Assembly (NCBI GenBank): GCA_016176335.1
Contig: JACOXI010000003.1
Span: 113,104 to 177,103, forward strand
Direction of reading: 5' to 3'
DNA: 64,000 bases
Source of the DNA: Candidatus Daviesbacteria bacterium
GTDB taxonomy: Bacteria > Patescibacteriota > Microgenomatia > Daviesbacterales > UBA10151
The notes under the pieces were generated by a model. That model worked only from the letters and a program-made list of their open reading frames with translations. It had not been told where the DNA came from and did not search any database. The first letter of the stretch is position 1. Each line of letters opens with the position of its first letter. The position numbers and the translations under genes were made by a program. This document shows, piece after piece, positions 2,771-52,652 of the stretch.

Positions 2771-4507
2771 TTACTTGGTTTCCACATTAAACAATGGTCC
2801 CACTATTTGAATATTGGCAGGCGCTCTTTGGTTAAAGTAATTTTTAAAATCCGAACCTGAAAAAGTTATCCCGTTAATAGTAACTGAGGTCGTTCGTCCA
2901 CTTCCAAAATCAGCACTAACAGAAACTGAGGAAGCATTATCAATAGGAGTCCCTCCTCTTGATCTAAGTTCTTGTTTTACCCTATCAGAACTCCAGTTAT
3001 CCGTTAGGGGACAACCTTGTTTAGGATCAGGTGGAGGAGCTGGTTTATCAGGTTGGAAGACAAAACATCCTAAAGAGGAATCTTTTTGCATAAGCATGAT
3101 TACATTGGCAATATCTGCAACTTCATCTAACTTAAGCCAGGCAGATTTGGCATATTCATTTCTATACCCTTGTGCCGCATAAAAACAGGGAGAATCTTTA
3201 TCATAAGCTTTGGAAAACAGATCCCCAAAGTTGCCTACATCCCCACCTATATCCCTAATTCTTTTGGTGAAAGAAGTGCCGGATCCCCAAACATCAGCGG
3301 ATGAAAAAGTATACCCTCCGTCTGTGGAAGAATACCAGGCTTTAACCGCCGACCCACCCGATACCATGACTTTTCCGTTAGTTTCGTTGACAGCCCGCTC
3401 CCAGTTTCCTCCTTTGTTGCCGCCTTTGTAAACCTGACACTGTTGGGTGGTGCAAATCTCTCCTGACCCATTGTTGGTGTAAGCCAGGGCATAAGAGCGG
3501 GCAGCAGCGGCTTGAGCTTTTAAAGCCTCAATCGGCCAGGAATCAGGCATCTCGTAAATGCCCAAAAGATAGGTTTCTAAAGGTATAGAGCCGTATCCTT
3601 GGACAGAAATATTAATGTTTGGTCTTTGTTCAAAACTAAAATCTTGGAAATAAGCTCTTAAGATATCTTCATGGCTTTGTCCAGCTTGGGCTCTACCTAA
3701 AGCCCCATACTGGTTCATACCAACTCTGTGCGGGATACCGAAAGTAAAGAAGGCAAATGCCGGTCTAAAACCCGGGTCCAAATTCCGGTCATCAGTACAA
3801 AACAGGGGGCCTGCACCCAAAGAAGTAGGCAGATTTAAGGATGCCTGTCTTTGAGCAATGATGGCTTGTTGACGAGCAGTCAGTTGAGCAATTTTTGAGG
3901 ATAGCTCGGACTGGAAGGCTTTGGCTTTGCTTATCTCCCCTCCTAAAAATTTGGCATTTTTATCTACTTCTGCTTGCAGGATGGCCAACCTGGCTTTATC
4001 TTTTTCCAGTTTATCTTTTTGGGTCAACAGATCAATCACTTCTTGAGTTATTGAGGAAATAATTTGCCTGTCTTCTTTGGCAACTGTTTGGCGGTAGGAT
4101 AATTCTCTGAATAAATCACCGGCTTGAAAGGAAGAAAGAATGACAATTAAAGGGTCTGAAAGAAATGACCTGATGTAATAGGCCCTGACCCTCTCTTCCA
4201 AAAGAGCTTGCTGAAGAGCAATTTTATCTTCTCTGACATCTAACTCTTTTTGTTTAGTCTGAATATTGGCGGATAAAGTGTTTAAGCTTGCCTGGATTTG
4301 GGCCAGTTGTCTTTGTAAAGAAGAAAACTGTCCTTCCAAAGGCTTGGTGGCGGAAACAGACAGCTCTCTTTGCTTGTTTAAATCATTAATTTGTCTTTGT
4401 AAATCCTCTATCTCATCAGCATGGACAGTTGGTAGTAAGTAGTTAGTAGTAAGTAGTAAGGAAAAAAAGGTGAAGATAGCTATCAAAAACTTTTTGCCAG
4501 AAGACAT
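2771..4507 (-). CDS. SpoIID/LytB-domain protein with N-terminal signal/TM and long coiled-coil
   Basis: Matches the SpoIID/LytB amidase-enhancer family (VGMNQYGALGRA, AAAARSYALAYT, YSSTDGGYT). ATG at 4507; an alternative TTG start lies at 4537. Confidence 0.75.
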   Translation of the reverse strand: MSSGKKFLIAIFTFFSLLLTTNYLLPTVHADEIEDLQRQINDLNKQRELSVSATKPLEGQFSSLQRQLAQIQASLNTLSANIQTKQKELDVREDKIALQQALLEERVRAYYIRSFLSDPLIVILSSFQAGDLFRELSYRQTVAKEDRQIISSITQEVIDLLTQKDKLEKDKARLAILQAEVDKNAKFLGGEISKAKAFQSELSSKIAQLTARQQAIIAQRQASLNLPTSLGAGPLFCTDDRNLDPGFRPAFAFFTFGIPHRVGMNQYGALGRAQAGQSHEDILRAYFQDFSFEQRPNINISVQGYGSIPLETYLLGIYEMPDSWPIEALKAQAAAARSYALAYTNNGSGEICTTQQCQVYKGGNKGGNWERAVNETNGKVMVSGGSAVKAWYSSTDGGYTFSSADVWGSGTSFTKRIRDIGGDVGNFGDLFSKAYDKDSPCFYAAQGYRNEYAKSAWLKLDEVADIANVIMLMQKDSSLGCFVFQPDKPAPPPDPKQGCPLTDNWSSDRVKQELRSRGGTPIDNASSVSVSADFGSGRTTSVTINGITFSGSDFKNYFNQRAPANIQIVGPLFNVETK

Positions 4508-9601: not shown

Positions 9602-11395
9602 ATGATACTTAGAATCAAGCGATTAGAATTAAGCAAAGCTTTCCTTTCGCATTTGCAAAACGTAAGAATTAAGCTTTTTGTATTCTTTATGCTTACTGCT
9701 TTATTCTTTTTGCTTATTCCTACTGCTTTTGCCCAAACCTCTACCCCCAGTGCAGTGCAGTCTACTGTCTACAGTCTACCGTCTACTGTCCAGCCCACCT
9801 CCCCTCTTTATACCGACCTTTTGGTAAATAATATGTTTCATACTTTTTCCTGTCTGGCTGTGGGGTCTTCTGTCATTGGCCAGCCATGTTTAACTTACCA
9901 GATGACCCAAAATGCCCAGGGTATGCTGCAAGGAGTACCTGTTTTATCCCAAACTAACCTGTCAGGAGGGGCTTTGGGGGCCACCACCTCTTTAATTGGC
10001 ATGTTGTATCTTAATCCGCCGGTTCGAACAGCTGATTATCTGGCATCTTTGGGAGAGCAGTTTGGAGTGGTAAAAGAAGCCCGGGCACAAGTTGGGGGAT
10101 CAGGAGCCCAGGTTTTAAGTCCAATTTTAAACCTTTGGCAGGTATCAAGAAATATATCTTATGTGATTATGATCATTATTTTTGTGATTATTGGGCTGAT
10201 GGTGATGTTTAGACAAAGAATCAATCCCCAAACAGTCATTACTGCCCAGGCAGCCCTTCCTGGATTGGTAATCGGCTTAATCTTAATTACTTTTAGCTAT
10301 TTTTTGGCAGGACTGATATCAGATACGGCATTTGTGGGAACCAATGTTGTGGGATATTATTTCTCTGCAGCACAGGGTATCCCTCCACAAAATTTGGTTG
10401 AAAATATGAAAGATAAGAATGTTTTGAGTATTTTCAGCCCGCTGACGGGAATTATTGACAAAGATAATGCCGCTAGTGCGCTGAGTTCTATATGGAACGG
10501 CTTAAGCGACGGAGCACAGCGCTTATTAACACTGTTGGCTATGTTTGTAACCGCCCAAACAATTTTGCAAGGCACAGAGTTTCTAAAGCTGATCAAAACC
10601 TTCGGAGAGCCCATTCAAGCGGCACTTACCACTATAGCAGTAGGCGCTACTTTGGCTAATCCTACAGCTCTTATAGGGCTTGCCTTAGCCTTTATAGCAA
10701 CTGCTGTATTGCTTTATTCCATGTTCAAATTATTGTTACGCTTAATCAATAATTATATAACCATCATATTTTTGACAATTACTGCTCCTTTCCAATTCCT
10801 GGCTGCATCGTTGCCTGGAAGACAAAGCATAGCCACAGGTTGGATCTTAAATATGCTTTGCAATGTTTTGGCATTCCCGGCGGTTTTTGCCGCTCTTTAT
10901 TTCGTGGCTTTTATTTTGGGACCAAATGTTGATGCTGTGAAAAAGCTACCTTTTCAAACCACTACCACTTCAATAACCGGAACTTCCACATTTCCTCTTT
11001 TTGGAGGTTTGGATCTTAACTTTATTAATATTCTTCTGGCATTTGGAGTTTTAGTGGCACTACCCAGTATCCCGGATATAATTTGCCGGACAATCGGCAG
11101 GGTGGGGGTAGCAGGACAGCTGATTGGCCAGGAAATTGGGGGCGGCATTGGCCAAGGCAGACAATATGCCGGTCAATTCCAGCAGGGCGTAGGAGCTGCC
11201 AGCGGTCAATTAGCCAGAGCCAGAGGCTTGTTTAATACTCCTGGGTATAAAATGGAGTTGATTCCCGGCACTATTGATCAATATAGGATTGTAGAAACAT
11301 ACGAGGCGGGAAGGGGTGCTACTTTTGGAGCTTTGACTAGACAAGGAATTCGCAAACCACCAAAATTAGAACCAGGCGTCAGGTCGGGAATATAA
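9602..11395 (+). CDS. VirB6/TrbL-like polytopic membrane protein of the type IV secretion-like system
   Basis: 597 aa. Signal peptide, periplasmic segment, then 6 or more TM helices. Gly/Gln-rich C-terminal tail. Its position after the pilin genes is typical for VirB6/TrbL. A possible later start is M at 9689. Confidence 0.55.
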   Translation: MILRIKRLELSKAFLSHLQNVRIKLFVFFMLTALFFLLIPTAFAQTSTPSAVQSTVYSLPSTVQPTSPLYTDLLVNNMFHTFSCLAVGSSVIGQPCLTYQMTQNAQGMLQGVPVLSQTNLSGGALGATTSLIGMLYLNPPVRTADYLASLGEQFGVVKEARAQVGGSGAQVLSPILNLWQVSRNISYVIMIIIFVIIGLMVMFRQRINPQTVITAQAALPGLVIGLILITFSYFLAGLISDTAFVGTNVVGYYFSAAQGIPPQNLVENMKDKNVLSIFSPLTGIIDKDNAASALSSIWNGLSDGAQRLLTLLAMFVTAQTILQGTEFLKLIKTFGEPIQAALTTIAVGATLANPTALIGLALAFIATAVLLYSMFKLLLRLINNYITIIFLTITAPFQFLAASLPGRQSIATGWILNMLCNVLAFPAVFAALYFVAFILGPNVDAVKKLPFQTTTTSITGTSTFPLFGGLDLNFINILLAFGVLVALPSIPDIICRTIGRVGVAGQLIGQEIGGGIGQGRQYAGQFQQGVGAASGQLARARGLFNTPGYKMELIPGTIDQYRIVETYEAGRGATFGALTRQGIRKPPKLEPGVRSGI

Positions 11396-15699: not shown

Positions 15700-15790
15700 C
15701 TATGGACTGATTCCCTTCGACTTCGTCCTTCGATTTCACTCAGGACTTCGCTCAGGGTTATAATCAGTGTAGAGCTTCGGTCAACTAACT
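15700..15790. repeat. R2 GC-rich motif cluster (AGTCGAAGG / CCTGAGCG direct repeats) in the 5' leader of the 1416-aa gene
   Basis: Minus-sense reads CCCTGAGCGAAGTCCTGAGTGAAATCGAAGGACGAAGTCGAAGGG. The same motifs are found at 17975-18060 and 43600-43712, always just upstream of a gene and in the same relative orientation. Confidence 0.55.
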
Positions 15791-15884
15791 GTCAATCCTT
15801 CGACACTATGCTTCGGACTGATCTCCTTTCTAGATTGTTTATCGTAACGCCTTGCGGCTCTTCGTATATCGAATATCGCGGATT

Positions 15885-15930
15885 GCCGATAAACGATAAC
15901 CGATTAACGATAAACCATTAACCAATTACC
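15885..15930. repeat. R3 module CGATAAACGATAACCGATTAACGATAAACC (degenerate tandem 8-9-bp units) in upstream region of 1416-aa gene
   Basis: 29 of 31 nt identical to a segment inside tsaD (40402-40432). Related CGTATATCG / GTTTATCGT motifs flank the gene at 46768-47130. Confidence 0.55.
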
Positions 15931-17974: not shown

Positions 17975-18060
17975 AACGGGACCCTTCGACTACGCTCAGG
18001 GTAAATTGTGGTCGGTCTCCTGGCTCTTCGACTCGCTTCGCTCGCTCAGAGCTATAGCTT
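17975..18060. repeat. R2 GC-rich motif cluster upstream of the 451-aa gene
   Basis: Minus-sense reads TCTGAGCGAGCGAAGCGAGTCGAAGAG ... CCCTGAGCGTAGTCGAAGGG, directly before the RBS and ATG. Confidence 0.55.
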
Positions 18061-18163
18061 ACCGAATCACAGTTGCGGCACAGCCCCGGACTTACACCGG
18101 GTTCCCTTTTTGTATCTTCTCCCGCTTAAAGGCGGCATGATACACCACGTTTTAAGAATAACA

Positions 18164-18262
18164 ACTCAAAACTCAAATGTCAAAACTCAAAATTACAAAT
18201 CAAATCTCAAAACTTTTTAGATTTAAGATGTAGATTTGCGATTTGAGATCTAAGATTGAGAT
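18164..18262 (+). repeat. Dispersed ~100-bp repeat R1, copy b
   Basis: CTCAAAACTCAAATGTCAAAACT ... GATGTAGATTTGCGATTTGAGATCTAA. Matches 15-118 and the reverse complement of 45630-45735. Lies about 80 nt upstream of the gene at 18341. Confidence 0.55.
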
Positions 18263-18340
18263 TAGTAGAGATTGTCCCATAATGATCCCTTTTGTGCTGC
18301 TTGCCATCATTTTTTTCACATTGTATACATTTAAGTAATT

Positions 18341-21894: not shown

Positions 21895-24135
21895 ATGGCT
21901 GGTCAAGATGTTAATTTTTATAAATATCTAGAAGCTGCTTTTAGGTTTAAATTATTTAATCCCGAAGGTCAAAGAGCCGGTTTTGATACTCATTTTAATC
22001 ACTTAAATTATAACCTGACTTACAAGCAGATTTTCTTTTATGCCAGAAAAATTCTGCCCAAATTTTATACCAGTGAATTCCCCGATACTGAAGAAGGTAA
22101 TCTGCAAATGGCCAAAAAGGTTTTGGAACAGCTGGACAAACATCAAGATACCCAGCTTGAGAATCAATTTAAATCAGTTACTGTTTCAGAGGAAAATACT
22201 CAAATCATAACTGAAGCGCAAGCACAGTCACAACAAACTGAAGCGATATCCACACAAACACCAGTTGGTACATCCGAAGGTATGATGAGTGGGCCAGGTT
22301 TACCTTCTGCTCCATCTAAATCTTTCGGGCCGCGGCGTGTTTTTATTGCCAACCAGACCCCTCCACCTGCAGGAGGCATGGAGGGAGGAATAGGCCAAGG
22401 CACGGCTGCTACTAATAAAGCAAATGCCAAAGCAAGCAGGCTGGAAGCTGAAACAAACCGGCTAAATGTGCAAACTGCTGCTCCCCGAAGATTTAACTGG
22501 GGTGGCTTTAAAATACCTGCCTCATTTACAAATGCAGCCAAAAATTTTGGTTCTGAGTCCCAAAGATTTATCGGTACAAATTTAGGGAGAATTGGCAAGG
22601 GTCTTGGAGAAATAGCCGGAGGATTAGGCAGAGGGATTGCCGGCCCTGCTCTTACCGGTACATACAATCTCCTGGGAAAAGCAGGCAGTGGCAGCCTTAA
22701 TGCTTTTGAAAGAATAACCAGACCAGGAGGCACAGGAGGAGGCGGAATAGGCAGAGGATTATCCAAATCCTCAAACAAATTAGCCTGGGGTTTGATCGGG
22801 ATAATGTTGTTTTTTGTCTTATTCGGCAGTATGTTAGGCGGCCTGGCAGGAACTACACCCACCGGTCAAGCCAGCCCAATTGGATCCATTGGATCTTTTG
22901 ATATTAGTAGTTGTAAATTTACAAGAGGCCAAGAAAATCCCAAAGAAGCCACTTTTAAAAGCAATAAACTTCTTTCGTATATTCAAGAGGCATCCCAAAA
23001 ATCAAACATCCCTCCTGCAGTACTTGCAGCCTTTATCAGGGTAGAGTCCCCCTCTTCATCCAATATGTCAGACGATCAGATTTCCAATTATTCTGCAAAT
23101 TGTGTACAAAGCTCTACAGGAGCACTGGGAATTATGCAGATCCAACCTTCTGGTACAACTTCTGCTAGAGGAGACCCGGCAAGTTGCGATGACTGCATTG
23201 ATGCGGGAGCCAAACTGATGGGTAAAACTGTTTCCACTATGACTAGGCAGGATTATTGTGATCCAAGAACAAATATCATTGTAGGAGCTGGTTGGATTTT
23301 AAAAAAAATGAGCAAATTAGGTTATGGCGATAGCACAAAATGGGATACTGCATGGACTAATGACAGAAAAGCAATTGAAGCCTTGGTCAATACTTACTAT
23401 GGATGCTTGCAATATGGAGACGCAACAAAAGACTGCGCCGGCCCCTATAACTATGCCGATGATGTTTCCACTAGTATCCAAAACTGCCAAGCGCAATCCC
23501 AAACAGTTCCGCCCCCACTAGCAGATGGAAATTATAAAAAATGGGTTCAGGATTTTGGAATCAATATTAATGACGGCTTTGTGCCGGATGTTTATAAATG
23601 GGCTTATGAAGTTTTAGCTTCTACATCTAGTATAGCGCCCAAATTTAAAGACCGCCTGGGTAGTACTCTCATTGAGATCAAACCAACCTGCGATATTTCC
23701 AAAACTAGCGGACGGATAATCTTTCTAAGAAATAAAATTCAATTCTGTCCCGGAGCAACTAAAGATGGGCCAACCGCTGATGAAAAACTGTTTAAACAAG
23801 TCTTTATTCACGAACTGGGACATATTATTAATGGATCATCCAGACCAGGCAAATATGGAGATCAAATCAAACAAGCTATTGCTGCTGAGGGATATCTCAC
23901 TGCTTATTCTCAAAAAGCAGCTACTGCAGATGATGAAATCTGCGGAGCCGCCGACTTAAATACCAGAGCTGATGAAGACTTTGCAGAAAGTATCTCTTAC
24001 TTTGTTAACCAAGGAATCAAAGAACAAGATTATGGGTGTGGTACAAACCTTAATCAAAACCCCATCTATGCTCAAGATAACAATCATCCTTTATACCTTA
24101 AGCATATTCAACTAATGATTGATTTGTTAAGATAA
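21895..24135 (+). CDS. Bifunctional cell-wall hydrolase: Gly-rich region + TM + lytic transglycosylase (SLT) domain + C-terminal HExxH metallopeptidase-like domain (VirB1/PrgK-type role)
   Basis: SLT signature ES...GALGIMQIQP, and FIHELGHIING. Position directly after virB4 matches T4SS-associated muramidases. Confidence 0.65.
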   Translation: MAGQDVNFYKYLEAAFRFKLFNPEGQRAGFDTHFNHLNYNLTYKQIFFYARKILPKFYTSEFPDTEEGNLQMAKKVLEQLDKHQDTQLENQFKSVTVSEENTQIITEAQAQSQQTEAISTQTPVGTSEGMMSGPGLPSAPSKSFGPRRVFIANQTPPPAGGMEGGIGQGTAATNKANAKASRLEAETNRLNVQTAAPRRFNWGGFKIPASFTNAAKNFGSESQRFIGTNLGRIGKGLGEIAGGLGRGIAGPALTGTYNLLGKAGSGSLNAFERITRPGGTGGGGIGRGLSKSSNKLAWGLIGIMLFFVLFGSMLGGLAGTTPTGQASPIGSIGSFDISSCKFTRGQENPKEATFKSNKLLSYIQEASQKSNIPPAVLAAFIRVESPSSSNMSDDQISNYSANCVQSSTGALGIMQIQPSGTTSARGDPASCDDCIDAGAKLMGKTVSTMTRQDYCDPRTNIIVGAGWILKKMSKLGYGDSTKWDTAWTNDRKAIEALVNTYYGCLQYGDATKDCAGPYNYADDVSTSIQNCQAQSQTVPPPLADGNYKKWVQDFGININDGFVPDVYKWAYEVLASTSSIAPKFKDRLGSTLIEIKPTCDISKTSGRIIFLRNKIQFCPGATKDGPTADEKLFKQVFIHELGHIINGSSRPGKYGDQIKQAIAAEGYLTAYSQKAATADDEICGAADLNTRADEDFAESISYFVNQGIKEQDYGCGTNLNQNPIYAQDNNHPLYLKHIQLMIDLLR

Positions 24136-24143
24136 AACTTACA

Positions 24144-26166: not shown

Positions 26167-26298
26167 CGCGTCTTCCGATTATACTACAGCTTATTAATAT
26201 TAATAGTAGTAAATAATATGTTCGGTGGATATGTTGAGAACTTAAAACTTTGTGTTTGGGATTCGCCAAAAATTCGTGTTGATGCTCGGTTTATTTTT

Positions 26299-26338
26299 AG
26301 TGGATAACTTGTGGACAAACTAATTTGTATGTGGATAA
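26299..26338. promoter_or_regulatory. Cluster of three DnaA boxes (aGTGGATAA, TGTGGACAA, TGTGGATAA) with adjacent AT-rich tract (26195-26220); candidate oriC / DnaA-regulated region
   Basis: Matches the 9-mer consensus TTATCCACA / TGTGGATAA at 26299-26307, 26310-26318 and 26330-26338. A further 8/9 box lies at 26159-26167. Confidence 0.6.
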
Positions 26339-26343
26339 ATCAG

Positions 26344-27660: not shown

Positions 27661-27680
27661 GGTTCGGTAAACTCTTCACA

Positions 27681-28300: not shown

Positions 28301-28309
28301 CGGTTAAAA

Positions 28310-28756: not shown

Positions 28757-29094
28757 TGCTTCCAAAATCCAAACGCCTTAACCTCAAAAAAGATTTTAAA
28801 TGGGTTGCATCTGGCAAAAAAATAGAAAGCAAGTACGCAAAACTTTTTATTAAGATCGGGGATAATACAAATCCTCGGGTTAGTATTGCTGTTTCATCCA
28901 GTCTTTTTAAAAAAGCGACTGAACGAAACAGAGCTAGACGACTTGTTGCCGAAGCTTTCCATAATACATACTACTTACTACCTAATACTATTAATATAGT
29001 GGCTCTTCCCAAACATAAGGTACTTGAGGTAAAATCATCTGACGTGTTTTTGGATTTGCAGAAACTATTAAAGGATGAAAAGATTATTGGGTAG
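28756..29094 (+). CDS. rnpA: RNase P protein component
   Basis: 112 aa, basic. Start overlaps the rpmH stop (TGATG). Canonical rpmH-rnpA-yidD-yidC order. Confidence 0.85.
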   Translation: MLPKSKRLNLKKDFKWVASGKKIESKYAKLFIKIGDNTNPRVSIAVSSSLFKKATERNRARRLVAEAFHNTYYLLPNTINIVALPKHKVLEVKSSDVFLDLQKLLKDEKIIG

Positions 29095-29275: not shown

Positions 29276-29280
29276 TAAAA

Positions 29281-30133: not shown

Positions 30134-30646
30134 ATGGAACAGCAACTATCTGAAGTTTTAGATAATATATTGGGGTTGTTACTTCTTGAGGGAAGTTATG
30201 AAATAGAGGAGACCGAAGACGGATTTATTGTTTCCATAGAAACACAAGATGCAGGGAGGCTGATTGGGGTCAGGGGGGAATCTTTAGATGCTCTCCAGTT
30301 AATTATTAACCAAATTATGTCCCGTGGTCAAAAGATCGGTGAGTTTAAAAGGATGATTTTGGATGTTTCCGGTTGGAGAAAGCAGAGGGAAGAAGATTTA
30401 AAAAGGAGTGCAGAGGATTGGGGTAAACAAGTTCTGGATTCAGGTAAGGAAATGGAGCTTGAGCCAATGAGTTCTTGGCAAAGAAGAGTTGTGCATATGG
30501 TGGTGGGTGAGATGAAAGGATTGGAGACTGAAAGTTTGGGAGAGGGTAGAGACAGACATGTGGTGATAAAACTCAAATCTCAAAATTCAAAACTCAAAAC
30601 TAAAAAAGAAGAGCCAAATACAGATGCTGAAACTAAAGAAGATTGA
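30134..30646 (+). CDS. jag: Jag/KhpB-like RNA-binding protein (KH + R3H domains)
   Basis: RLIGVRGESLDALQLII (KH motif) and a C-terminal R3H-like region (WQRRVVHMVVGEM). Conserved partner immediately downstream of yidC. Confidence 0.8.
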   Translation: MEQQLSEVLDNILGLLLLEGSYEIEETEDGFIVSIETQDAGRLIGVRGESLDALQLIINQIMSRGQKIGEFKRMILDVSGWRKQREEDLKRSAEDWGKQVLDSGKEMELEPMSSWQRRVVHMVVGEMKGLETESLGEGRDRHVVIKLKSQNSKLKTKKEEPNTDAETKED

Positions 30647-40258: not shown

Positions 40259-41500
40259 TCAGGCGAGCGCAAGACTGGGGTCTGCTTGTAATTTTAAGGG
40301 AGTAGCAATAGGTTTTTGACCCGCCTTGCCGCGAGGCAGGAAAAAAGCAGCTGCTGCTATCATGGCAGCGTTATCAGTGCAAAGATGTGGTGGAGGAACC
40401 GCCAGGTTTATCGTTAATCGTGAATCGTTTATCGTTTTTAGAAATTGTTCACGAAGCTTTTTATTAGAGGCAACGCCGCCGGCAATCATAATATTTTTTA
40501 CCTTATAAATTTTGGCAGCCTTTATGGTTTTGGCAACTAAAACATCAACAATGGCAGATTCAATGGAAGCGGCCAAGTTAGCCAGCTCGTCACGGCTGAA
40601 AAAACCGCTCGCGCGACCAGATCGCTCGCTTGGAGTTTGTTTCGTGCCAAGCTCTGGATTCGTGGTTTCGATAGTTTGTGGTGCGCTCAACTGCACTACA
40701 TTTTTTCTAGCTCGCGACTTCGCTGTCTTTTCGTGTTCGCTTAAAAAATTTGCTACGGATGTTTTGAGCCCGGAAAAGGAGAAGTCAAAGTCTTTAGAAT
40801 CTATCATGGGTCTAGGTAGATCAAAAGCTTTGGGATTTCCTTTTTGGGCAAGTTTGGAAATTTGGGGTCCGCCCGGATAAGACAGTCCCAGCAGGCGGGC
40901 GCATTTGTCAAAACACTCGCCAGCAGCATCATCTCTGGTGCCACCCAGGTATTTATATTTACCATGATCTGTGAAGAGTACCAAATCTGTATGCCCGCCG
41001 GAAACTAGTAAGCCTATGCAGGGAAAGGATGGTTTATCGGTTATCGTTAATCGTGAATCGTTTTTTTCTTCCGATATACGATATTCGATATCCGATTGAC
41101 TAATTTCGACCCAGTTTGCATAAAAGTGTCCAATAAGATGATTTACAGGAATTAGGGGTCTATTCCAAACAAGAGCCAGTGTTTTGGCTGTTTCCACTCC
41201 CACTAGAAGGGAGCCGATCAGCCCTGGACCATAGGTAACAGCTATAGCATCAATTGGCGGGTAGTTGGTAGTTGGTAGTTGGTAGTTGGGAAAGGCTTGA
41301 GTTAATGCCTCTTGTATCACTGGTATTATCGACCGCAACTGTTCTCTGGCTGCCTGTTCCGGAATGATCCCACCATATTTAGCTTGTAAGGAGGCCGAGG
41401 ATGCCACCACATTGGATAAAATTGTTATTCGATTATCGTTATTCGTCAACACAGCTGCTGCTGTTTCATCACAAGAAGTCTCAATACCCAAAATAATCAT
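40259..41500 (-). CDS. tsaD: tRNA N6-adenosine threonylcarbamoyltransferase TsaD (Kae1/Gcp family) with three short in-frame insertions
   Basis: MIILGIETSCDETAAAV start (ATG at 41500; the ORF extends to 41539) and conserved His/Asp metal ligands. Inserts NDSRLTI (x2) and NDNRITI are encoded by CGATAAACG-type repeat DNA. Confidence 0.85.
   Translation of the reverse strand: MIILGIETSCDETAAAVLTNNDNRITILSNVVASSASLQAKYGGIIPEQAAREQLRSIIPVIQEALTQAFPNYQLPTTNYPPIDAIAVTYGPGLIGSLLVGVETAKTLALVWNRPLIPVNHLIGHFYANWVEISQSDIEYRISEEKNDSRLTITDKPSFPCIGLLVSGGHTDLVLFTDHGKYKYLGGTRDDAAGECFDKCARLLGLSYPGGPQISKLAQKGNPKAFDLPRPMIDSKDFDFSFSGLKTSVANFLSEHEKTAKSRARKNVVQLSAPQTIETTNPELGTKQTPSERSGRASGFFSRDELANLAASIESAIVDVLVAKTIKAAKIYKVKNIMIAGGVASNKKLREQFLKTINDSRLTINLAVPPPHLCTDNAAMIAAAAFFLPRGKAGQKPIATPLKLQADPSLALA
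40400..40437. repeat. R3 module copy inside tsaD coding sequence (rc: CGATAAACGATTCACGATTAACGATAAACC)
   Basis: 29 of 31 nt identical to 15889-15919. Encodes TINDSRLTIN in the tsaD frame. Confidence 0.6.
41036..41072. repeat. R3 module copy (permuted) inside tsaD coding sequence (rc: AACGATTCACGATTAACGATAACCGATAAACC)
   Basis: Encodes KNDSRLTITDKP. A weaker third copy lies at 41428-41450 (NNDNRITI). Confidence 0.55.
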
Positions 41501-44366: not shown

Positions 44367-45619
44367 GTGCCTTCGTTCCAGGAGGATAAATAACGTTTTT
44401 GCTCATCAGTCAACTGATCAATCTTAATCCCTAATGATTCCAATTTTAATTGAGCAATCATCTGATCCAATTCCTCTGGTACAGTGTGGACACCCTTTTT
44501 GAGCTTGCCGCGGTTTTGTACCAGATATTCTGCTGCCAAAGCCTGATTGGCAAAGGACATATCCATCACATCAGGCGGATGTCCTTCTGCCACCACCAGA
44601 TTAACCAGTCTTCCTTCTGCCAAAAGATAAATCTTTTTGTTATCTGGTAATAGATATTCCTCAACGCCGTCTCGCACAAATTTTTTTGATTTTTTGACTT
44701 TTTCCAGATACAAAACATCAATCTCCACATTAAAATGTCCGGTATTGGCCAAAATAACTCCGTCTTTTAAATTTTTAATGATACTCTCATCAACTATATG
44801 TTTATCTCCTGTGGCTGTGACAATGATCTCTGCCATCTTGGCTGCATCAGCAAGTGGCATGACTTGGTACCCGTCCATGATCGCCTCGAGGGCTCTGACA
44901 GGATTGACTTCCGTCACGATAACATGTGAGCCCATTCCTCTGGCCCGCATGGCCACTCCTCTGCCGCACCAGCCGTATCCTGCTACCACAAATACTTTTC
45001 CTGCCAAAAGAATGTTTGTGGCCCGTATGATTCCGTCAATTGTTGATTGGCCTGTGCCGTAGCGGTTATCAAAAAGATATTTGGTTTGGCTTTCATTAAC
45101 AGCCATAACAGGGATAGCCAGTGTTTTATCCTTTTCCATGGCTTTCAGGCGCAACACTCCTGTGGTTGTTTCCTCTGATGAGCCAATCACATCTTTAAGC
45201 TGGGATCTTCTCTCTGTATGCAAAAGTGTGACTAAATCCGCCCCGTCATCCATGGTAATGTGAGGATGGGTATCAAGGACCTGATTCAGATGCTGATAAT
45301 AAGTTTTCTTATCCTCTCCTGATATGGCAAAGGTGGGAATTGCAAAGTCTTCCACAAGGGACGCTGCAATATCATCTTTGGTTGATAGCGGATTACAAGC
45401 ACAAAGCGAAACTTGGGCACCCCCTGCCTTAAGAGTCAGCATCAGATTGGCAGTTTCCGAACTGACATGCAGACAGGCTGCTATGCGGATACCGTCAAAA
45501 GGTTTTTCTTTGGTAAAGCGTTCTTTTATCAGCTGGAGCACTTTCATTTGAGATCCGGCCCACTCAATTTTGAGTTTTCCCTTAGCAGCTAATTTTTTAT
45601 CCTTAATATCGTATTTCAT
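44363..45619 (-). CDS. ahcY: Adenosylhomocysteinase (S-adenosyl-L-homocysteine hydrolase)
   Basis: 418 aa. NAD-binding GYGWCGRG (Rossmann) and conserved substrate-domain motifs (HVSSETANL, CNPLSTKDD). Confidence 0.9.
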   Translation of the reverse strand: MKYDIKDKKLAAKGKLKIEWAGSQMKVLQLIKERFTKEKPFDGIRIAACLHVSSETANLMLTLKAGGAQVSLCACNPLSTKDDIAASLVEDFAIPTFAISGEDKKTYYQHLNQVLDTHPHITMDDGADLVTLLHTERRSQLKDVIGSSEETTTGVLRLKAMEKDKTLAIPVMAVNESQTKYLFDNRYGTGQSTIDGIIRATNILLAGKVFVVAGYGWCGRGVAMRARGMGSHVIVTEVNPVRALEAIMDGYQVMPLADAAKMAEIIVTATGDKHIVDESIIKNLKDGVILANTGHFNVEIDVLYLEKVKKSKKFVRDGVEEYLLPDNKKIYLLAEGRLVNLVVAEGHPPDVMDMSFANQALAAEYLVQNRGKLKKGVHTVPEELDQMIAQLKLESLGIKIDQLTDEQKRYLSSWNEGT

Positions 45620-45629
45620 ATCTTCAATC

Positions 45630-45735
45630 TTAAATGTTAGATCTCAAATCGCAAATCTACATCTAAAATCTCAAATGTTTTAAAAGTTTTAAGATTTGAG
45701 TTATAGTTTTGACATTTGACATTTGAGTTTTGAGA
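45630..45735 (-). repeat. Dispersed ~100-bp repeat R1, copy c (reverse orientation), immediately upstream of ahcY
   Basis: The reverse complement matches 18164-18262 over about 90 nt, including CTCAAAACTCAAATGTCAAA and GATGTAGATTTGCGATTTGAGATCTAA. Confidence 0.55.
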
Positions 45736-45738
45736 TAC

Positions 45739-46707: not shown

Positions 46708-46716
46708 TTCAAATCT

Positions 46717-46765
46717 AGTATATCGTATATGGTTTATCGTATATCGTAAAGAGCAAATAAATTCT
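46717..46765. repeat. R3-type AT-rich motif block (TATCGTATATGGTTTATCGTATATCG ... TTATCGTTTATCGG) flanking four-helix-bundle gene (left)
   Basis: Shares the 13-mer GTTTATCGTATAT with the right flank (47136-47148). Confidence 0.5.
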
Positions 46766-46767: not shown

Positions 46768-47130
46768 TTATCGTTTATCGGATTTCAAGAATTTCTTGTA
46801 AGAACGTATTTTACGGATTATCTTTTCAGCCGCCTCATAGAGTTGATTCCTGACTGATTTATCTAAATAATTTAATTCAAGTGCTATCTGGATTTCAGAA
46901 GTAGTTTCCAGTGCAGACTTAACTGCAATATCCAAATAATGCATTTTATCAGTAACGCTGCTGGCTCCTGAGCCTTCGGCAATATTTGCTGAAATAGATA
47001 CAGCTGCACGTCTAAGTTGATTAGTCAGACCATAAATTTCAGATCTGGGGAATTTATCAGTTACTTTGTAGATGGTGCGAGCATACTCTATGGCAAGTTT
47101 CCAAATATCAAGCGATTCGTAGGTAAACAT
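46768..47130 (-). CDS. Four-helix-bundle protein (23S rRNA intervening-sequence protein family, TIGR02436-like)
   Basis: MFTYESLDIWKLAIEYARTIYKVTDKFPRSEIYGLTNQLRRAAVSISANIAEGSG matches the family core. ATG at 47130 (the ORF runs to 47325 and overlaps the vanW-like gene). Confidence 0.75.
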   Translation of the reverse strand: MFTYESLDIWKLAIEYARTIYKVTDKFPRSEIYGLTNQLRRAAVSISANIAEGSGASSVTDKMHYLDIAVKSALETTSEIQIALELNYLDKSVRNQLYEAAEKIIRKIRSYKKFLKSDKR

Positions 47131-47134
47131 ATTT

Positions 47135-47190
47135 AGTTTATCGTATATTGAATAAACGATATACGAAGAACGAAGTGTTACGATAAACGA
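47135..47190. repeat. R3-type motif block flanking four-helix-bundle gene (right): GTTTATCGTATAT + 8-bp inverted repeat TCGTATAT/ATATACGA + ACGATAAACGA
   Basis: Direct repeat of the left-flank 13-mer, plus an internal palindrome. Seen directly in sequence. Confidence 0.5.
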
Positions 47191-47192
47191 AT

Positions 47193-48995
47193 TTACTCCT
47201 TTGTCCCTACCAAGTATACAGCTTGCCAGGGTTTGTAGGAAGAGTTCCAAGTTTCTTTTATTAAAACTTGCCCATCTCTTGTGACAGTTCTTGTAAAAGA
47301 GACCTTTGCCCCCCAAGCTGCCCAATCTACTTGTTTTACAGTGCCTTTTGGCAAAGTGGGATCATCCTGCCTTAGTTCCGGAGGCGGAGGAGTTTGATCG
47401 GCAACCACAGATTTGGAGATGGCGGCGATTCTGCCGTCGGATGTACCATATAAATCAACATAAAGGGTAGCTCCTTCGGTGTATGCCTGGATTAAGATGT
47501 GAGCTGGGGTATCATTTTGGAACTGAAAATCAACTGATGGATAAAAAACAGTGGCATCCAAACCAGGGGGAAAACCCTGTTCATAATAGCCAACTCGGTA
47601 AGTATGGGCTGTTCTTTTTACAACAGGTAATCCGGCATTTAAAACTGCCCGGAAAAGAGTGGTGGAATCCTGACAAACCCCGCCCCCGTCATCCAAAACA
47701 GTTCTGCCTTCTTTGATGACATAGGCCTGTTTAAAGCCGGTGGCAGCTGTGATGTCACCCACTGTTTGATTAAAAGAAAAGATTTCACCCGGAGGAACTA
47801 AGACCCCGTTAATTTTTTGGGCAGTGAGGTTAATATTATAGATTCTGTTGGGAATTGATCCGGCAAAATTGGAGATACCCTGGCCGATCAATTCCTTGAT
47901 CCCCAAGGAATTGACATCTGAGGTTTGAATCTTGGGTTTGATAATTACAACAGGCAAAACAATTGTTTTTGAAGAAGGCGAGGTCAGTGCTTCTGTAATT
48001 AAGTTGTAAGTTTTTTCTATATCAAGCTTTTGCCCTTCTTGTGAGGGCCTGAAAGTAATGACTCTTTTGGTTTTGGGATTAAATTCGAATAAGCCTTCTT
48101 GAACTTCCTGGTCTATTTCTTTGGCAATCTTGCTTATATAAGTTTTGGTTTTCCCCTGGTCCAAAAGCAAGTCCCCGCCGCTTGTTAAATCCAAAAGAGC
48201 AAGCAGTTGTTTTGTATCTAAAAAATATGAAGTTTTTTCAAAAGTAAGTCTGATTGGTTGTTTTTGGGTTTGTTCAAGTGCCTGTTTTGCTCTTTTGACG
48301 TGTTCTGTGGTGATTTTTGGTGGGACAACTTTTGTGGGCAGCAAAGATTGGTATTTGCCAAAAAGCAGATAATCTGCAATGGCTTTTTCAACTGATAATC
48401 TATCTAAGCTTAGGCCATCTTTTCCTTCTTTGATTTGAATACGGGCTGAAGGACTGCCTTCTGTGTTGGGGCTTTCATCAAAAAGCAGTTGGGCATCAGT
48501 ATATGGTTTATCAACAATCTTGGCAATTTGCTCAAGTTGAGATTCCAAAGACATGTTAACTGTCAGTAAGATTTGTTGAGGGTAAAAAAGGGTAGAAAAT
48601 TGCCTTAAAATCTTATCCCAAACAAAACCTGCTTGCTGCTTTGCCAAACTTTGATCAAGTAAAGAGTAATCAATTCTGGCAGAAGAGGTGGCGAGGTCTA
48701 TGGTGAATGATTGGTTCTGGTAAACAAAAGCTAGTTTTTGGGCAGATCTTTGCTGGAGGCTGCTTTCCACCTGTCTTATGGCTTGACCTTGAGTGAGGAA
48801 TGAGATATTGGAAGAACCAATATATGTCAGAGGATAGAACTTATCTGTTATGAAGGCTGAATATAAAAAAATGAGTAAAAGTAACAAAATTATCGACAGA
48901 ACAGAAGGTAAACTGTTTTTTTTAAAAAAGACCACTGTTTTTTTAAAGGGATTGCTTTTAATTTTTTCCTTTTTCGAAGATTTTTCTTTGGCCAC
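47193..48995 (-). CDS. VanW-family protein with N-terminal TM anchor
   Basis: Signature GGGVCQDSTTLFRAV (VanW GGGVCQxSTTLY) and a preceding PG-binding-like region. 600 aa. Confidence 0.75.
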   Translation of the reverse strand: MAKEKSSKKEKIKSNPFKKTVVFFKKNSLPSVLSIILLLLLIFLYSAFITDKFYPLTYIGSSNISFLTQGQAIRQVESSLQQRSAQKLAFVYQNQSFTIDLATSSARIDYSLLDQSLAKQQAGFVWDKILRQFSTLFYPQQILLTVNMSLESQLEQIAKIVDKPYTDAQLLFDESPNTEGSPSARIQIKEGKDGLSLDRLSVEKAIADYLLFGKYQSLLPTKVVPPKITTEHVKRAKQALEQTQKQPIRLTFEKTSYFLDTKQLLALLDLTSGGDLLLDQGKTKTYISKIAKEIDQEVQEGLFEFNPKTKRVITFRPSQEGQKLDIEKTYNLITEALTSPSSKTIVLPVVIIKPKIQTSDVNSLGIKELIGQGISNFAGSIPNRIYNINLTAQKINGVLVPPGEIFSFNQTVGDITAATGFKQAYVIKEGRTVLDDGGGVCQDSTTLFRAVLNAGLPVVKRTAHTYRVGYYEQGFPPGLDATVFYPSVDFQFQNDTPAHILIQAYTEGATLYVDLYGTSDGRIAAISKSVVADQTPPPPELRQDDPTLPKGTVKQVDWAAWGAKVSFTRTVTRDGQVLIKETWNSSYKPWQAVYLVGTKE

Positions 48996-51767: not shown

Positions 51768-52652
51768 GAAAAAGCTATTTTAAAAACTTTAATTTATGCT
51801 GATATTTTTGATTATCCGCTAAATACTTACGAAATTCATAAATGGTTGATTGGTAAAAAGGCTCGACTTCGGCAGGTAGAATCCGCCTTAGGCGGATTAG
51901 TGCAAAGTGCAAAGCTCAAAGTACAAAGTGGATATTATTTTCTTCCCAGAAGAGATGGGTTGGTAGTAAAAAGGAAGCGTAGAGAAGAACAGTCAGAAAA
52001 GTATTTGCGAAAAGCACAGGTTTTAGCCTCACTTTTAAAGATCGTGCCCTGGATTAAACTGATAGGTGTTTCTGGTGGATTGGCGATGGGGAATGCCAGT
52101 AAGAGTGATGATATTGACCTTTTTATTATTACCAGTAAAAATCGCCTGTGGATTTCAAGGCTTTTGGCATTAGGATTGCTATCTTTAACAGGACAAAGGA
52201 GAAAAGTTGGGGATTTTGGCAGAAAAATTGCCGGAAAATTATGTTTAAATATCTTACTCGAAGAGGATAGATTAGAGCAAAACAATAAAGATATCTATCT
52301 TGCACATGAGGTTTTACAAATGAGGGTTTTATGGCAAAGGGATGGGATTTATTCAAAATATCTTTCCGATAATGAATGGGCTTTCAAGTTTTTACCGAAT
52401 TGGGTGGGAGAAAGAATCAAGAATAATGAATTAAGAATTAAGCATAAAAAGCATAATTCTTTATTCTTACCGCTTAATTCTACTTTGAACATTTTCGAGA
52501 GAATGGCACAAAAATTCCAACTTTGGTATATGCAAACTCCGCAAGGCATGGAGAGGATAGAAGATGGGGCGCTATATTTCCATCCGTTGGATTATAGGAG
52601 CAGAATACTTGATGCATACCAAAAGAAAGTAGTAAAACTTATCAGTCCTTGA
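51765..52652 (+). CDS. Nucleotidyltransferase-fold (Pol-beta superfamily) protein
   Basis: GVSGGLAMGNASKSDDIDLFIIT fits the GS...D.D nucleotidyltransferase motif. 295 aa. Confidence 0.5.
   Translation: MEKAILKTLIYADIFDYPLNTYEIHKWLIGKKARLRQVESALGGLVQSAKLKVQSGYYFLPRRDGLVVKRKRREEQSEKYLRKAQVLASLLKIVPWIKLIGVSGGLAMGNASKSDDIDLFIITSKNRLWISRLLALGLLSLTGQRRKVGDFGRKIAGKLCLNILLEEDRLEQNNKDIYLAHEVLQMRVLWQRDGIYSKYLSDNEWAFKFLPNWVGERIKNNELRIKHKKHNSLFLPLNSTLNIFERMAQKFQLWYMQTPQGMERIEDGALYFHPLDYRSRILDAYQKKVVKLISP

What the first reader, a model, noticed from the sequence alone, without database searches (positions are those of the whole stretch)
15885..15930. A 31-nt AT-rich repeat module appears both in an intergenic promoter region and twice in-frame inside the essential tsaD gene
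CGATAAACGATAACCGATTAACGATAAACC at 15889-15919 is 29/31 identical to the reverse complement of 40402-40432 inside tsaD. A permuted copy is at 41036-41072 and a weaker one at 41428-41450. In tsaD the copies are in frame and encode NDSRLTI / NDNRITI peptide inserts. This makes TsaD about 80 aa longer than typical (426 versus about 340 aa). It looks like a dispersed short repeat that has been exapted into coding sequence. Related CGTATATCG/GTTTATCGT blocks flank the four-helix-bundle gene.
Basis: seen in the sequence. Interest (0 to 1): 0.6.

Follow-up and report, generated by a model that had tools for sequence, protein, structure and literature searches.

The report
Seven-base tandem repeats inside tsaD
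The "31-nt module" is one of many short runs of 7-base tandem repeats scattered through this candidate-phyla-radiation bacterial genome; some survive inside the essential tsaD gene because they add multiples of 21 bases, avoid stop codons and sit in tolerant loops, so this is an unusual instance of a known repeat class and not a new mobile element.

Summary
The similarity is real but overstated: 27/30, not 29/31. The "module" is about four tandem 7-nt units of the family CGAT[A/T]A[A/C].

Period-7 arrays are specifically enriched in the window: 13-17 arrays against 0.3 in shuffles, with almost none at other periods. They are also enriched in related Microgenomates-like genomes and in 72 metagenome contigs that carry the same unit.

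In tsaD only two regions are true insertions: loop 2 (+7 aa) and loop 3 (+21 aa). Both are multiples of 21 nt and are modelled as coil (loop 2) or disordered (loop 3). "TINDSRLTIN" and "NNDNRITI" are native-length, well-ordered segments conserved across the lineage. Even so, the loop-5 DNA is heptamer-periodic in 9 of 10 species, each with its own unit. That points to an old array evolving in concert.

The shared unit order among copies is largely forced by stop-codon avoidance: only phases of RLTINDK are open. Most of TsaD's extra length comes from an unrelated 156-nt in-frame hairpin element with covariation support.

Best reading: heptanucleotide simple-sequence (STRR-like) arrays filtered by reading-frame selection. 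This is a new variant of a known kind. The mechanism is inferred, not shown.

The parts
15886..15928 (+). The finding's non-coding copy. About 6 tandem heptamers: CGATAAA-CGATAAC-CGATTAA-CGATAAA-CCATTAA-CCAATTA.
   Evidence: TRF period 7/14/21. It lies in the 333-nt gap between the YafQ-like toxin gene and the start of the 1416-aa gene. It matches the reverse complement of 40405-40434 at 27/30.
15836..15885 (+). Block A (GTTTATCGTAAC..CTTCGTATATCGAATATCG) of a composite A+B non-coding element. Block B is the array at 15886-15928.
   Evidence: The same A+B arrangement lies upstream of the IVP/Avd-like gene in the window (47135-47200) and in L085 (alignment A5).
40259..41500 (-). tsaD coding sequence (413 aa from the ATG at 41500). 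The catalytic motifs are intact.
   Evidence: Pfam TsaD 5.9e-83. PDB TsaD hits at 2e-71. H121/H125/D376 and other invariant columns are conserved. Identical to NCBI protein P0001.
40405..40437 (-). Loop-5 heptamer array ACGATAA-ACGATTC-ACGATTA-ACGATAA, encoding TINDSRLTIN. Native length and ordered (helix end, turn, beta-strand).
   Evidence: 18/21 lag-7 matches against a gene-core 99th percentile of 10. No length change relative to relatives. pLDDT 95-98. Relatives carry other units at the same place.
41030..41063 (-). Loop-3 array 2 (CGATTCA-CGATTAA-CGATAAC-CGATAAA), encoding NDSRLTITDK. Part of a 21-aa insertion.
   Evidence: Exact 23-mer shared with 40408-40430 (D13). Loop 3 is 28 aa here against 6-7 aa in P0090, P0070 and P0010. 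pLDDT below 50.
41069..41096 (-). Loop-3 array 1 (CGGATAT-CGAATAT-CGTATAT-CGG), encoding SDIEYRIS.
   Evidence: TRF period 7, 3.6 copies. 76% complementary to 46709-46749 over 41 nt (I5).
41257..41291 (-). Loop-2 array, a perfect (AACTACC)x4.3 encoding PNYQLPTTNY. A 7-aa insertion.
   Evidence: TRF 100% matches. 21/21 lag-7 matches. Loop 2 is 14 aa here against 7 in insert-free relatives. Orthologous 4-unit arrays with diverged units in L082 and L083.
41428..41450 (-). Weakly periodic CGAATAA/CGATAAT segment encoding the native beta-hairpin TNNDNRIT. Not an insert.
   Evidence: The peptide is conserved as TNNDKRIT in relatives. Modelled as an ordered hairpin. Only 12/21 lag-7 matches.
40586..40741 (-). 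Loop-4 insert: a 156-nt (52-aa) in-frame hairpin element, not built from heptamers. The largest contributor to the extra length.
   Evidence: Ends are 94-96% identical to L081, and third-codon-position identity is 1.00/0.87 against 0.51 gene-wide. Consensus structure has 95% of cells paired and 10 compensatory pairs, against 0-2 in slid controls. No other copy in 473 kb.
30568..30606 (+). AAAACTC-family array at the site of a 14-aa (42-nt) insert near the C-terminus of KhpB/Jag.
   Evidence: Alignment with the L085 orthologue shows a clean 14-aa gap. TRF period 7, 5.6 copies.
46709..46749 (-). Non-coding CGATATA/CGATAAA array, 11 nt upstream of the pfkB start codon.
   Evidence: true start is MITVTGS. 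The spacer is 95% identical to L085, more conserved than the flanking genes (A6).
46768..46780 (-). CGATAAACGATAA, supplying the last codons and the stop codon of the IVP/Avd-like gene.
   Evidence: Sequence. Pfam PF05635 at 1.8e-32 for 46768-47130.
47130..47200 (-). CGATA-type heptamer blocks upstream of the IVP/Avd-like gene (a second copy of the A+B element).
   Evidence: (D6).
4427..4462 (-). CTTACTA-family array within the N-terminal hydrophobic segment of a SpoIID-domain protein.
9681..9790 (+). Two arrays (period 7/14 at 9681-9729; GTCTACT at 9758-9790) in the N-terminal region of a 597-aa protein.
28960..28981 (+). Short CATACTA/CTTACTA array inside rnpA.
51899..51930 (+). AGTGCAA array in a 295-aa ORF.
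52412..52448 (+). AAGAATT array in the same 295-aa ORF.
18157..18272 (+). Composite ~115-nt non-coding element made of two opposed heptamer arrays (CTCAAAA... / ...TTTGAGA).
   Evidence: I1-I3. Alignment A3.
45618..45737 (-). Second copy of the composite element. It fills the gap between the pfkB stop and the AdoHcyase start.
   Evidence: 80-89% identical to the 18157 copy. RNA fold -26.9 kcal/mol, z = -3.1.

Best explanation
The finding is one array in a genome-wide population of short heptanucleotide tandem repeats (STRR/LSSR-like). This one belongs to the unit family CGAT[A/T]A[A/C].

Inferred mechanism: a DNA-level process specific to a 7-nt register creates arrays and keeps them homogeneous. 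The likely candidates are slipped-strand mispairing, or short-tract conversion between misaligned units and between nearby arrays of the same family.

Shown: selection then filters what survives in genes.
(i) Net length changes are multiples of 21 nt (7 aa).
(ii) Units carry the variants that remove in-frame TAA.
(iii) The resulting 7-aa-periodic, hydrophilic peptides sit in tolerant loops, tails or signal peptides.

In tsaD, loop 2 (+7 aa) and loop 3 (+21 aa) are real array insertions, modelled as coil and disordered loop respectively. The loop-5 array (TINDSRLTIN) is old. It predates the divergence of these Microgenomates-like species, is now part of the fold, and evolves in concert, with a different unit in each species at constant length.

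The 27/30 resemblance between the non-coding copy and the tsaD copies reflects a shared unit family plus the forced unit order. The exact 23-mer shared by the two tsaD copies suggests intragenic copying or conversion (inferred).
For: Period specificity: 13-17 arrays at lag 7, against 0-4 at lags 4-12 and 0.3 in shuffles. CGAT..CGAT occurs 15 times at spacing 7 and 0-1 times at other spacings.

Lineage breadth: relatives L081-L086 have 15 lag-7 arrays and none at lags 5, 6, 8, 9 or 10. Unrelated bacteria (495 kb) have 8, with no lag preference.

Same unit elsewhere: 76 matches in 72 metagenome loci. Their contigs hold 99 further lag-7 arrays, against 2-23 at other lags.

21-nt quantum: TsaD loop 2 +7 aa and loop 3 +21 aa; KhpB +14 aa. 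Loop lengths in 120 relatives step 8->15, 10->17->24 and 27->34.

Stop constraint: only 2-4 of 16 unit combinations are open per frame, and all are phases of RLTINDK. ORF-embedded metagenome copies read ...KRLTINDK....

Depletion in genes: 8 of 20 arrays lie in the 8.5% of the window that is non-coding (p = 1.4e-4).

Concerted evolution: loop 5 has at least 15/21 lag-7 matches in 9 of 10 species, with different units at constant length. Loop 2 has exactly 4 units between conserved flanks; they are perfect in the window and mixed in L082 and L083. Peptide lag-7 identity is 0.21/0.19/0.13 in loops 5/2/3, against 0.06 in the core, over 119 proteins.

Structure: loop-3 insert disordered, loop-2 insert coil, loop 5 and loop 1 ordered.

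Literature: heptanucleotide repeats are the most abundant long simple-sequence-repeat class in many prokaryotes, with slippage proposed as the cause (Mrazek 2007, as summarised in PMC4679880). [quoted passage not shown]
Against: - Stepwise slippage by one unit would frameshift an essential gene. Coding arrays must therefore change by three units at once, or by conversion without length change. Neither event was observed directly.
- Nothing here explains why the register is exactly 7 nt.
- Arrays fall into a few unit families shared between distant loci. The same 22-mer occurs in different tsaD loops of two species. The IVP-pfkB spacer array is 95% conserved between species. A purely local, neutral slippage model predicts none of these.
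- tsaD is roughly a 20-fold hot spot, and this is unexplained.
- No strain-level data on copy-number polymorphism were available.
Confidence: 0.62

Rival explanations
1. A very small mobile element. On this view a ~30-nt heptamer module, like the small dispersed repeats of Nostoc or a miniature Rickettsia palindromic element, is copied to new sites by some enzyme and is occasionally tolerated in frame.
For: - Copies at distant loci share variant-unit order: 27/30, 28/34 and an exact 23-mer.
- The same 22-mer lies in loop 2 of L088's tsaD but in loops 3 and 5 of the window's.
- The non-coding copy is part of a longer composite element repeated upstream of the IVP gene in two species.
- A ~115-nt composite element made of heptamer arrays is present in 3 copies.
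- The unit family is found in contigs with GC from 16% to 62%. The literature on TAACTGA repeats likewise suspects horizontal spread (PMC4679880).
Against: - Unit order is largely dictated by stop avoidance.
- No defined ends, target-site duplications or empty-versus-filled sites were seen.
- Arrays at one orthologous site carry different units in different species at constant length. That fits in-place turnover better than repeated insertion.
- Arrays of many unrelated units coexist.
- No candidate transposase was identified, and IVP homologues are not associated with the arrays (1 of 72 loci).
Confidence: 0.17
2. A functional cis-element. On this view the heptad arrays are binding sites on DNA or mRNA for a protein that reads one heptamer per domain (for example cold-shock or S1-like proteins). 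Selection maintains them in 5' UTRs and, secondarily, in tsaD mRNA.
For: - The array 11 nt upstream of the pfkB start is 95% conserved between species, more than the flanking genes.
- Another array pair ends 7 nt from the AdoHcyase start.
- Periodicity persists at tsaD loop 5 in 9 of 10 species.
- Published proposals exist for Beggiatoaceae and Nostoc heptamers as regulatory sites, and CspB is reported to bind heptamer repeats (PMC4679880; bioRxiv 10.1101/2022.06.06.494920).
Against: - Units differ completely between arrays and between species at the same site, so no single sequence-specific reader fits.
- Many arrays lie in signal peptides, linkers and tails with no obvious regulatory logic.
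- No binding protein was identified or tested here.
Confidence: 0.12
3. Coincidence. On this view AT-rich codon usage for N, D, K, R, L, T and I happens to resemble the intergenic sequence.
For: TINxxRLTIN and NNDKRITI are conserved peptides in the lineage. Part of the DNA similarity could therefore follow from protein constraint.
Against: - Shuffles gave 0 matches for the 30-mer.
- The 7-nt (not 21-nt) periodicity, at 18/21, cannot come from selection on the protein.
- Only lag 7 is enriched genome-wide.
Confidence: 0.03

Closest known systems
Heptanucleotide simple-sequence repeats in bacteria: cyanobacterial STRR, long simple-sequence repeats (Mrazek 2007), GGGNATC repeats of Xanthomonas/Nostoc (PMC4692102), and TAACTGA repeats of Beggiatoaceae, Cyanobacteria and Bacteroidetes (PMC4679880)
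   Same: Tandem 7-nt units. Many dispersed loci per genome. A few preferred unit families. A typical size of about 4 units. Enrichment in non-coding DNA, often next to start or stop codons. Occasional ORF-embedded copies whose orientation is limited by stop codons. Origin and function unresolved.
   Different: The host is a CPR/Microgenomates-like genome, a setting my literature searches did not turn up. 12 of 20 arrays lie in coding sequence, four of them strong arrays in one essential enzyme. One array sits in an ordered part of the fold and has persisted, with unit turnover, across species. There are no G-tracts, so the G-quadruplex explanation for the four-unit preference does not apply.
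Rickettsia palindromic elements (RPE; Ogata et al. 2000, recalled from my own knowledge and not retrieved here)
   Same: Short repeats found in frame inside conserved, essential protein genes. They are translated and located in surface-exposed segments without destroying function.
   Different: RPEs are 100-150-nt palindromic elements with a defined consensus. The arrays here are ~30-nt direct tandem repeats with no palindrome. The tsaD loop-4 hairpin element looks more RPE-like, but no second copy was found.
Small dispersed repeats (SDR) of Nostoc punctiforme (Elhai et al. 2008, recalled from my own knowledge; the paper could not be retrieved)
   Same: Dispersed sequences of 21-27 nt, associated with heptameric tandem repeats and sometimes inserted conservatively in genes.
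   Different: SDRs are unique-sequence modules inserted into other repeats. Here the module is itself the heptamer array. No evidence of insertion events was obtained.
Tandem repeats creating disordered regions in Borg elements (PMC9879509, abstract seen)
   Same: Nucleotide-level tandem repeats inside ORFs that evolve quickly and add disordered peptide segments.
   Different: As I recall (not checked here), Borg in-ORF repeat units are themselves multiples of 3 nt. Here the unit is 7 nt, so only triple-unit steps are viable, and each unit is read in all three frames.

Membership tests
Heptanucleotide simple-sequence repeat arrays (STRR/LSSR type) | Head-to-tail tandem copies of a 7-nt unit | tested here: met
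   TRF period 7 at 15887, 40406, 41032, 41072, 41260 and elsewhere. Lag-7 self-identity up to 21/21.
Heptanucleotide simple-sequence repeat arrays (STRR/LSSR type) | Many dispersed loci per genome, well above chance, and specific to period 7 | tested here: met
   13-17 arrays against 0.3 in shuffles, with other lags at 0-4. 8 arrays in 495 kb of control genomes.
Heptanucleotide simple-sequence repeat arrays (STRR/LSSR type) | Over-representation in non-coding DNA, often close to start or stop codons | tested here: met
   8 of 20 arrays lie in 8.5% of the DNA (p = 1.4e-4). Arrays lie 7-11 nt from the pfkB and AdoHcyase starts, and one overlaps the IVP stop codon.
Heptanucleotide simple-sequence repeat arrays (STRR/LSSR type) | Unit-number variation between strains (slippage) | not testable with these tools
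   No near-identical strains were found (the best relative is 69% identical in protein). The only evidence is indirect: 7-aa steps in loop lengths among species.
In-frame mobile mini-elements (RPE/SDR type) | A defined consensus element with fixed ends, shared by copies at unrelated sites | tested here: inconclusive
   27/30 and exact 23-mer matches exist. However, the unit order is forced by stop avoidance, and no fixed boundaries were seen.
In-frame mobile mini-elements (RPE/SDR type) | Presence/absence polymorphism at orthologous sites with clean insertion boundaries | tested here: inconclusive
   Loops 2 and 3 are filled in some relatives and empty in others, in 7-aa steps. The DNA is too diverged to define boundaries or target duplications.
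In-frame mobile mini-elements (RPE/SDR type) | Palindromic (hairpin) architecture, which defines RPEs | tested here: not met
   The arrays are direct repeats. Only the separate loop-4 element and the ~115-nt composite elements are hairpins.
Diversity-generating retroelement target (considered because an Avd-like IVP gene is flanked by the same repeats) | A template/variable repeat pair with adenine-specific differences, plus a nearby reverse transcriptase | not tested
   No systematic search for a reverse transcriptase was made in the window. The copies differ at T/A/C positions with no adenine-specific pattern. IVP homologues are not associated with the arrays in metagenomes (1 of 72 loci).

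The most novel reading that the evidence does not exclude
In some CPR lineages, a DNA process specific to a 7-nt register continually writes and re-homogenises heptamer arrays inside essential genes, including ordered parts of the fold. Loop 5 of TsaD would then have been encoded by a four-unit array since before these species diverged, with its unit sequence turning over by concerted evolution while the length stays fixed. On this reading, a nucleotide-level repeat process generates lineage-specific protein sequence in highly reduced genomes, and tsaD is a roughly 20-fold hot spot for it. The same gene also carries an in-frame, covariation-supported ~150-nt hairpin element.
Probability: 0.3. 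Interest if true: 0.7.

Novelty: new variant of a known kind. Interest (0 to 1): 0.5.

Why it matters
Heptanucleotide repeats have been recognised as the dominant long simple repeat in many bacteria since 2007, but their origin, and the reason for a 7-nt unit, remain unexplained.

Arrays embedded in an essential, well-understood enzyme give a natural experiment. The reading frame permits only 21-nt steps, stop codons restrict which units are allowed, and orthologous arrays in related species let turnover be followed through time.

If the concerted-evolution reading holds, it shows a route by which CPR bacteria acquire lineage-specific loops in core proteins. It is also a warning to annotators and structure predictors that such segments are driven by DNA repeats.

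If the ordinary reading holds, the finding is simply one more genome rich in known heptamer repeats.

Tried and rejected
1. A link between the repeats and the IVP/Avd-like four-helix-bundle gene. CGATAA blocks flank this gene in the window and in L085, but only 1 of 72 metagenomic array loci encodes an IVP homologue and 0 of 80 control loci do. Rejected as a general association.

2. Known RNA families. Rfam at gathering threshold finds only a cobalamin riboswitch at 17993-18164. A permissive scan of tsaD gives one meaningless miRNA hit at E = 0.71.

3. A promoter role for the finding's copy. No sigma-70-like site overlaps 15886-15928, and the nearest promoter-like sites are at 15735-15795. One -35/-10 pair spans the array at the IVP stop codon, but this is only a consensus match.

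4. The loop-4 hairpin as a dispersed element. Neither blastn-short nor a covariance model finds another copy in 473 kb.

5. Strain-level comparison. The closest relative is 69% identical in protein, and the species-representative genomes reach only 47%. Polymorphism could therefore not be assessed.

6. Elhai et al. 2008 could not be retrieved. A literature search for heptamer repeats in CPR bacteria found nothing relevant.

7. Resemblance of ACGAUAA to a tRNA anticodon loop (TsaD's substrate). I considered this and dropped it without a test, because the other units (AACTACC, ATTGTCA, GATTAAA and so on) do not fit.

8. Assembly artefact. Rejected, because in-frame arrays recur in independent NCBI, ENA and Logan assemblies.

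Full report
**Observation.** The sequence at 15886-15928 reads CCGATAAACGATAACCGATTAACGATAAACCATTAACCAATTA. The best ungapped match is 27/30 (15887-16 vs 40405-34; I8). No dinucleotide shuffle of the window gave a match at 3 mismatches or fewer. The second tsaD copy (41030-41063) matches at 28/34 and shares an exact 23-mer with the first (I6, D13). The third (41428-41450) is weaker, at about 23/29. The similarity is therefore real, though it was overstated and the coordinates were slightly off.

**What the module is.** Tandem Repeats Finder calls every copy a period-7 array of about 4 units, and it lists many other period-7 arrays with different units: GTAGTAA, GTCTACT, AAAACTC, GGTAGTT (perfect, 4.3 copies), GTATATC, AGTGCAA, AAGAATT and CTCAAAA.
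- A lag scan finds 13-17 arrays at lag 7, 0-4 at lags 4-12, and 0.3 in locally shuffled sequence.
- CGAT..CGAT occurs 15 times at spacing 7 and 0-1 times at every other spacing.
- 495 kb from 80 unrelated bacteria hold 8 such arrays, with no preference for lag 7.

**Organism and relatives.** The window's TsaD is an NCBI protein on a 457-kb contig (P0001). The nearest species-representative genomes are CPR/Patescibacteria at 47% identity. Closer relatives (57-69%) include Candidatus Daviesbacteria. Syntenic loci from six relatives carry 15 lag-7 arrays and none at lags 5, 6, 8, 9 or 10.

**Which tsaD segments are inserts.** I aligned against 22 lineage relatives and against canonical TsaDs, and against T. 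maritima TsaD.
- Loop 2 is +7 aa, from the perfect AACTACC array (PNYQLPTTNY).
- Loop 3 is +21 aa, from two adjacent arrays (ISQSDIEYRISEEKNDSRLTITDK).
- Loop 4 is about +43-52 aa and is not heptamer-based.
- The C-terminus is +7 aa.
- TINDSRLTIN (loop 5) and NNDNRITI (loop 1) cause no length change relative to lineage relatives. Many relatives read KTINxxRLTINL and TNNDKRIT.

An AlphaFold2 model (pLDDT 86, pTM 0.85) agrees. Residues 137-154 have pLDDT below 50, residues ~270-300 about 50, and loop 2 is coil. Loop 5 (helix end, turn, strand) and the loop-1 hairpin score 88-98. All catalytic and invariant residues are present.

**The 21-nt quantum.** A 7-nt unit can only be added in frame three units at a time.
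- TsaD loop 2 is +7 aa and loop 3 is +21 aa.
- KhpB/Jag has a clean 14-aa gap against its L085 orthologue, exactly at the AAAACTC array.
- Among 120 relatives, loop lengths step 8->15, 10->17/18->24/25 and 27->34, though other sizes also occur.

**Stop-codon constraint.** Perfect CGATAAA or CGATTAA arrays contain TAA in every frame. Of the 16 possible four-unit combinations, only 2-4 are open in a given frame, and all of those encode a phase of RLTINDK. The opposite strand is open in all frames but encodes the hydrophobic FIVYRLS. This explains much of the 'permuted' resemblance among the copies. It also explains why ORF-embedded copies elsewhere read ...KRLTINDK....

**Distribution of the unit family.** An exact scan of metagenome contigs with ACGATWMMCGATTAACGATAA returned 76 matches in 72 loci. 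About 30 are in long ORFs of unrelated proteins. The rest are non-coding, and some of those arrays have more than 10 units. The host contigs range from 16% to 62% GC. They carry 99 other lag-7 arrays in 379 kb, against 2-23 at other lags. So both the unit family and general heptamer richness extend well beyond this genome.

**Persistence and concerted evolution.** At loop 5, 9 of 10 species have 15-21 of 21 lag-7 matches. The 99th percentile for the gene core is 10-11, and other lags never exceed 12. Each species has its own unit (ACGATAA, GATTAAA, AATTAGA, ATTGTCA in a perfect x4 array, GCTGTCA, GGTTACA, CAATTAA), and the loop length is constant. At loop 2, exactly four units sit between conserved flanks: all AACTACC in the window, 2+2 in L083, and four variants in L082.

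Across 119 proteins, residue identity at lag 7 is 0.21, 0.19 and 0.13 in loops 5, 2 and 3, against about 0.06 in the core and at most other lags. Selection on the protein cannot produce 7-nt periodicity, so a DNA-level process must be maintaining it. Among 77 tsaD genes from diverse bacteria, only two reach 15/21, and both are CPR. One of them (Doudnabacteria) again has its array at loop 5. tsaD holds 10 of 15 arrays in the relatives' loci and 4 strong arrays in the window, roughly a 20-fold excess. Part of that excess may be ascertainment bias.

**Non-coding context.** The finding's copy lies in a 333-nt gap upstream of a 1416-aa gene, about 100 nt beyond the nearest promoter-like site. It is block B of a composite A+B element that recurs immediately upstream of a 23S-rRNA-IVP/Avd-like gene (PF05635) in the window and in L085. 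That gene's stop codon is supplied by CGATAAACGATAA. The array 11 nt upstream of pfkB is 95% identical between the two species. IVP homologues are not generally associated with such arrays. Overall, 8 of 20 arrays lie in the 8.5% of the window that is non-coding (p = 1.4e-4).

**Comparison with known systems.** Heptanucleotide repeats are reported as the most abundant long simple-sequence-repeat class in many prokaryotes, with polymerase slippage proposed as the cause (Mrazek 2007, as summarised in PMC4679880). TAACTGA repeats in Beggiatoaceae, Cyanobacteria and Bacteroidetes are mostly intergenic, with a few ORF copies at protein termini, and stop codons limit their orientation. GGGNATC repeats in Xanthomonas and Nostoc prefer four units and avoid coding DNA (PMC4692102). 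The present case has all the defining features of this class. It differs in host lineage, in the high share of coding copies, and in the persistence of an array within an ordered segment of an essential enzyme. It fails the palindrome criterion for RPEs, and no mobility signature was obtained.

**Mechanism.**
- Shown: period-7 specificity, family structure, frame and stop filtering, 7-aa steps, loop location, and cross-species persistence with unit turnover.
- Inferred: that slipped-strand mispairing or short-tract conversion between misaligned units creates and homogenises the arrays, and that the two tsaD CGATAA copies exchanged sequence.
- Unexplained: why the register is 7 nt, why tsaD is a hot spot, and why some non-coding arrays are more conserved than the neighbouring genes.

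**Side discovery.** The 156-nt loop-4 insert (40586-40741) has ends 94-96% identical to L081's. Third-codon-position identity there is 1.00/0.87, against 0.51 gene-wide. A consensus hairpin over five orthologous copies has 95% of cells paired (32-42% when partners are slid). It has 10 compensatory pairs, against 0-2 in slid controls and 3.4 in shuffles (0 of 500 shuffles reach the observed value). A covariance model finds no other copy in 473 kb, and there is no Rfam match. This element, not the CGATAA arrays, accounts for most of TsaD's extra length.

**Verdict.** The feature is a new variant of a known repeat class. Interest is moderate (0.5), mainly because of the coding-embedded arrays that evolve in concert.

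Noticed in passing
window 40586-40741 (minus strand), inside tsaD: A 156-nt (52-aa) in-frame insert forms a long hairpin. Covariation across five orthologous copies supports the structure: 10 compensatory pairs and 95% of cells paired. Its ends are conserved at third codon positions far above the gene average. There is no Rfam match and no other copy in 473 kb. It could be an RPE-like relic or a cis-acting mRNA structure.
   Followed up: partly
window 18157-18272, 45618-45737 and 18-106: Three copies of a ~115-nt non-coding element built from two opposed heptamer arrays (CTCAAAA... / ...TTTGAGA), 80-89% identical to each other. The 45618 copy folds at -26.9 kcal/mol (z = -3.1) and exactly fills the gap between the pfkB stop and the AdoHcyase start.
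   Followed up: partly
window 17993-18164 (minus strand): A cobalamin riboswitch (RF00174, 62 bits) upstream of a 451-aa ORF with no Pfam match. Its 5' end abuts the composite heptamer element.
   Followed up: no
window 46768-47130 (minus strand); L085 5860-6219: A 23S-rRNA-IVP/Avd-like four-helix-bundle gene flanked on both sides by CGATAA-type heptamer blocks in two species. The IVP-pfkB spacer is 95% identical between species, more conserved than the genes. A sigma-70-like -35/-10 pair spans the array at the IVP stop codon.
   Followed up: partly
window 49035-49077 and 51741-51783: A shared leader, ACTKGTGGTGAGCGRAGTCGAACCATG, ends at the start codons of two genes: a solute-binding protein at 49059 and an unknown 295-aa ORF at 51765.
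   Followed up: no
relatives' TsaD loops 2-4 and valyl/isoleucyl-type tRNA synthetases (P0013, P0025, P0050, P0101, P0109; L082 aaRS): Other repeat-like peptides occupy the same variable loops in relatives: VIPAKAGIY.., VIPNEVRNLP.., DPSLIVQDDK, ARNDK, and a 3x NKVSSSAY repeat. These loops appear to accept several kinds of inserted repeat, not only heptamer arrays.
   Followed up: no
window ~24000-30700: Cumulative GC skew reaches its minimum near 24-26 kb, and rnpA, yidC and khpB/jag lie at 28.7-30.6 kb. The replication origin is therefore probably in this window. tsaD (minus strand, at 40 kb) would then be transcribed head-on to replication.
   Followed up: no
L114, L138, L141, L126, L152 (metagenome loci): Orthologous proteins carry the same CGATTAA array as ...HQT[GS]DKRLTINDK[LF][IV]LLDFG..., apparently between a catalytic-loop-like motif and a DFG-like motif of a kinase-like protein. 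This is another conserved enzyme hosting the same heptamer family.
   Followed up: no
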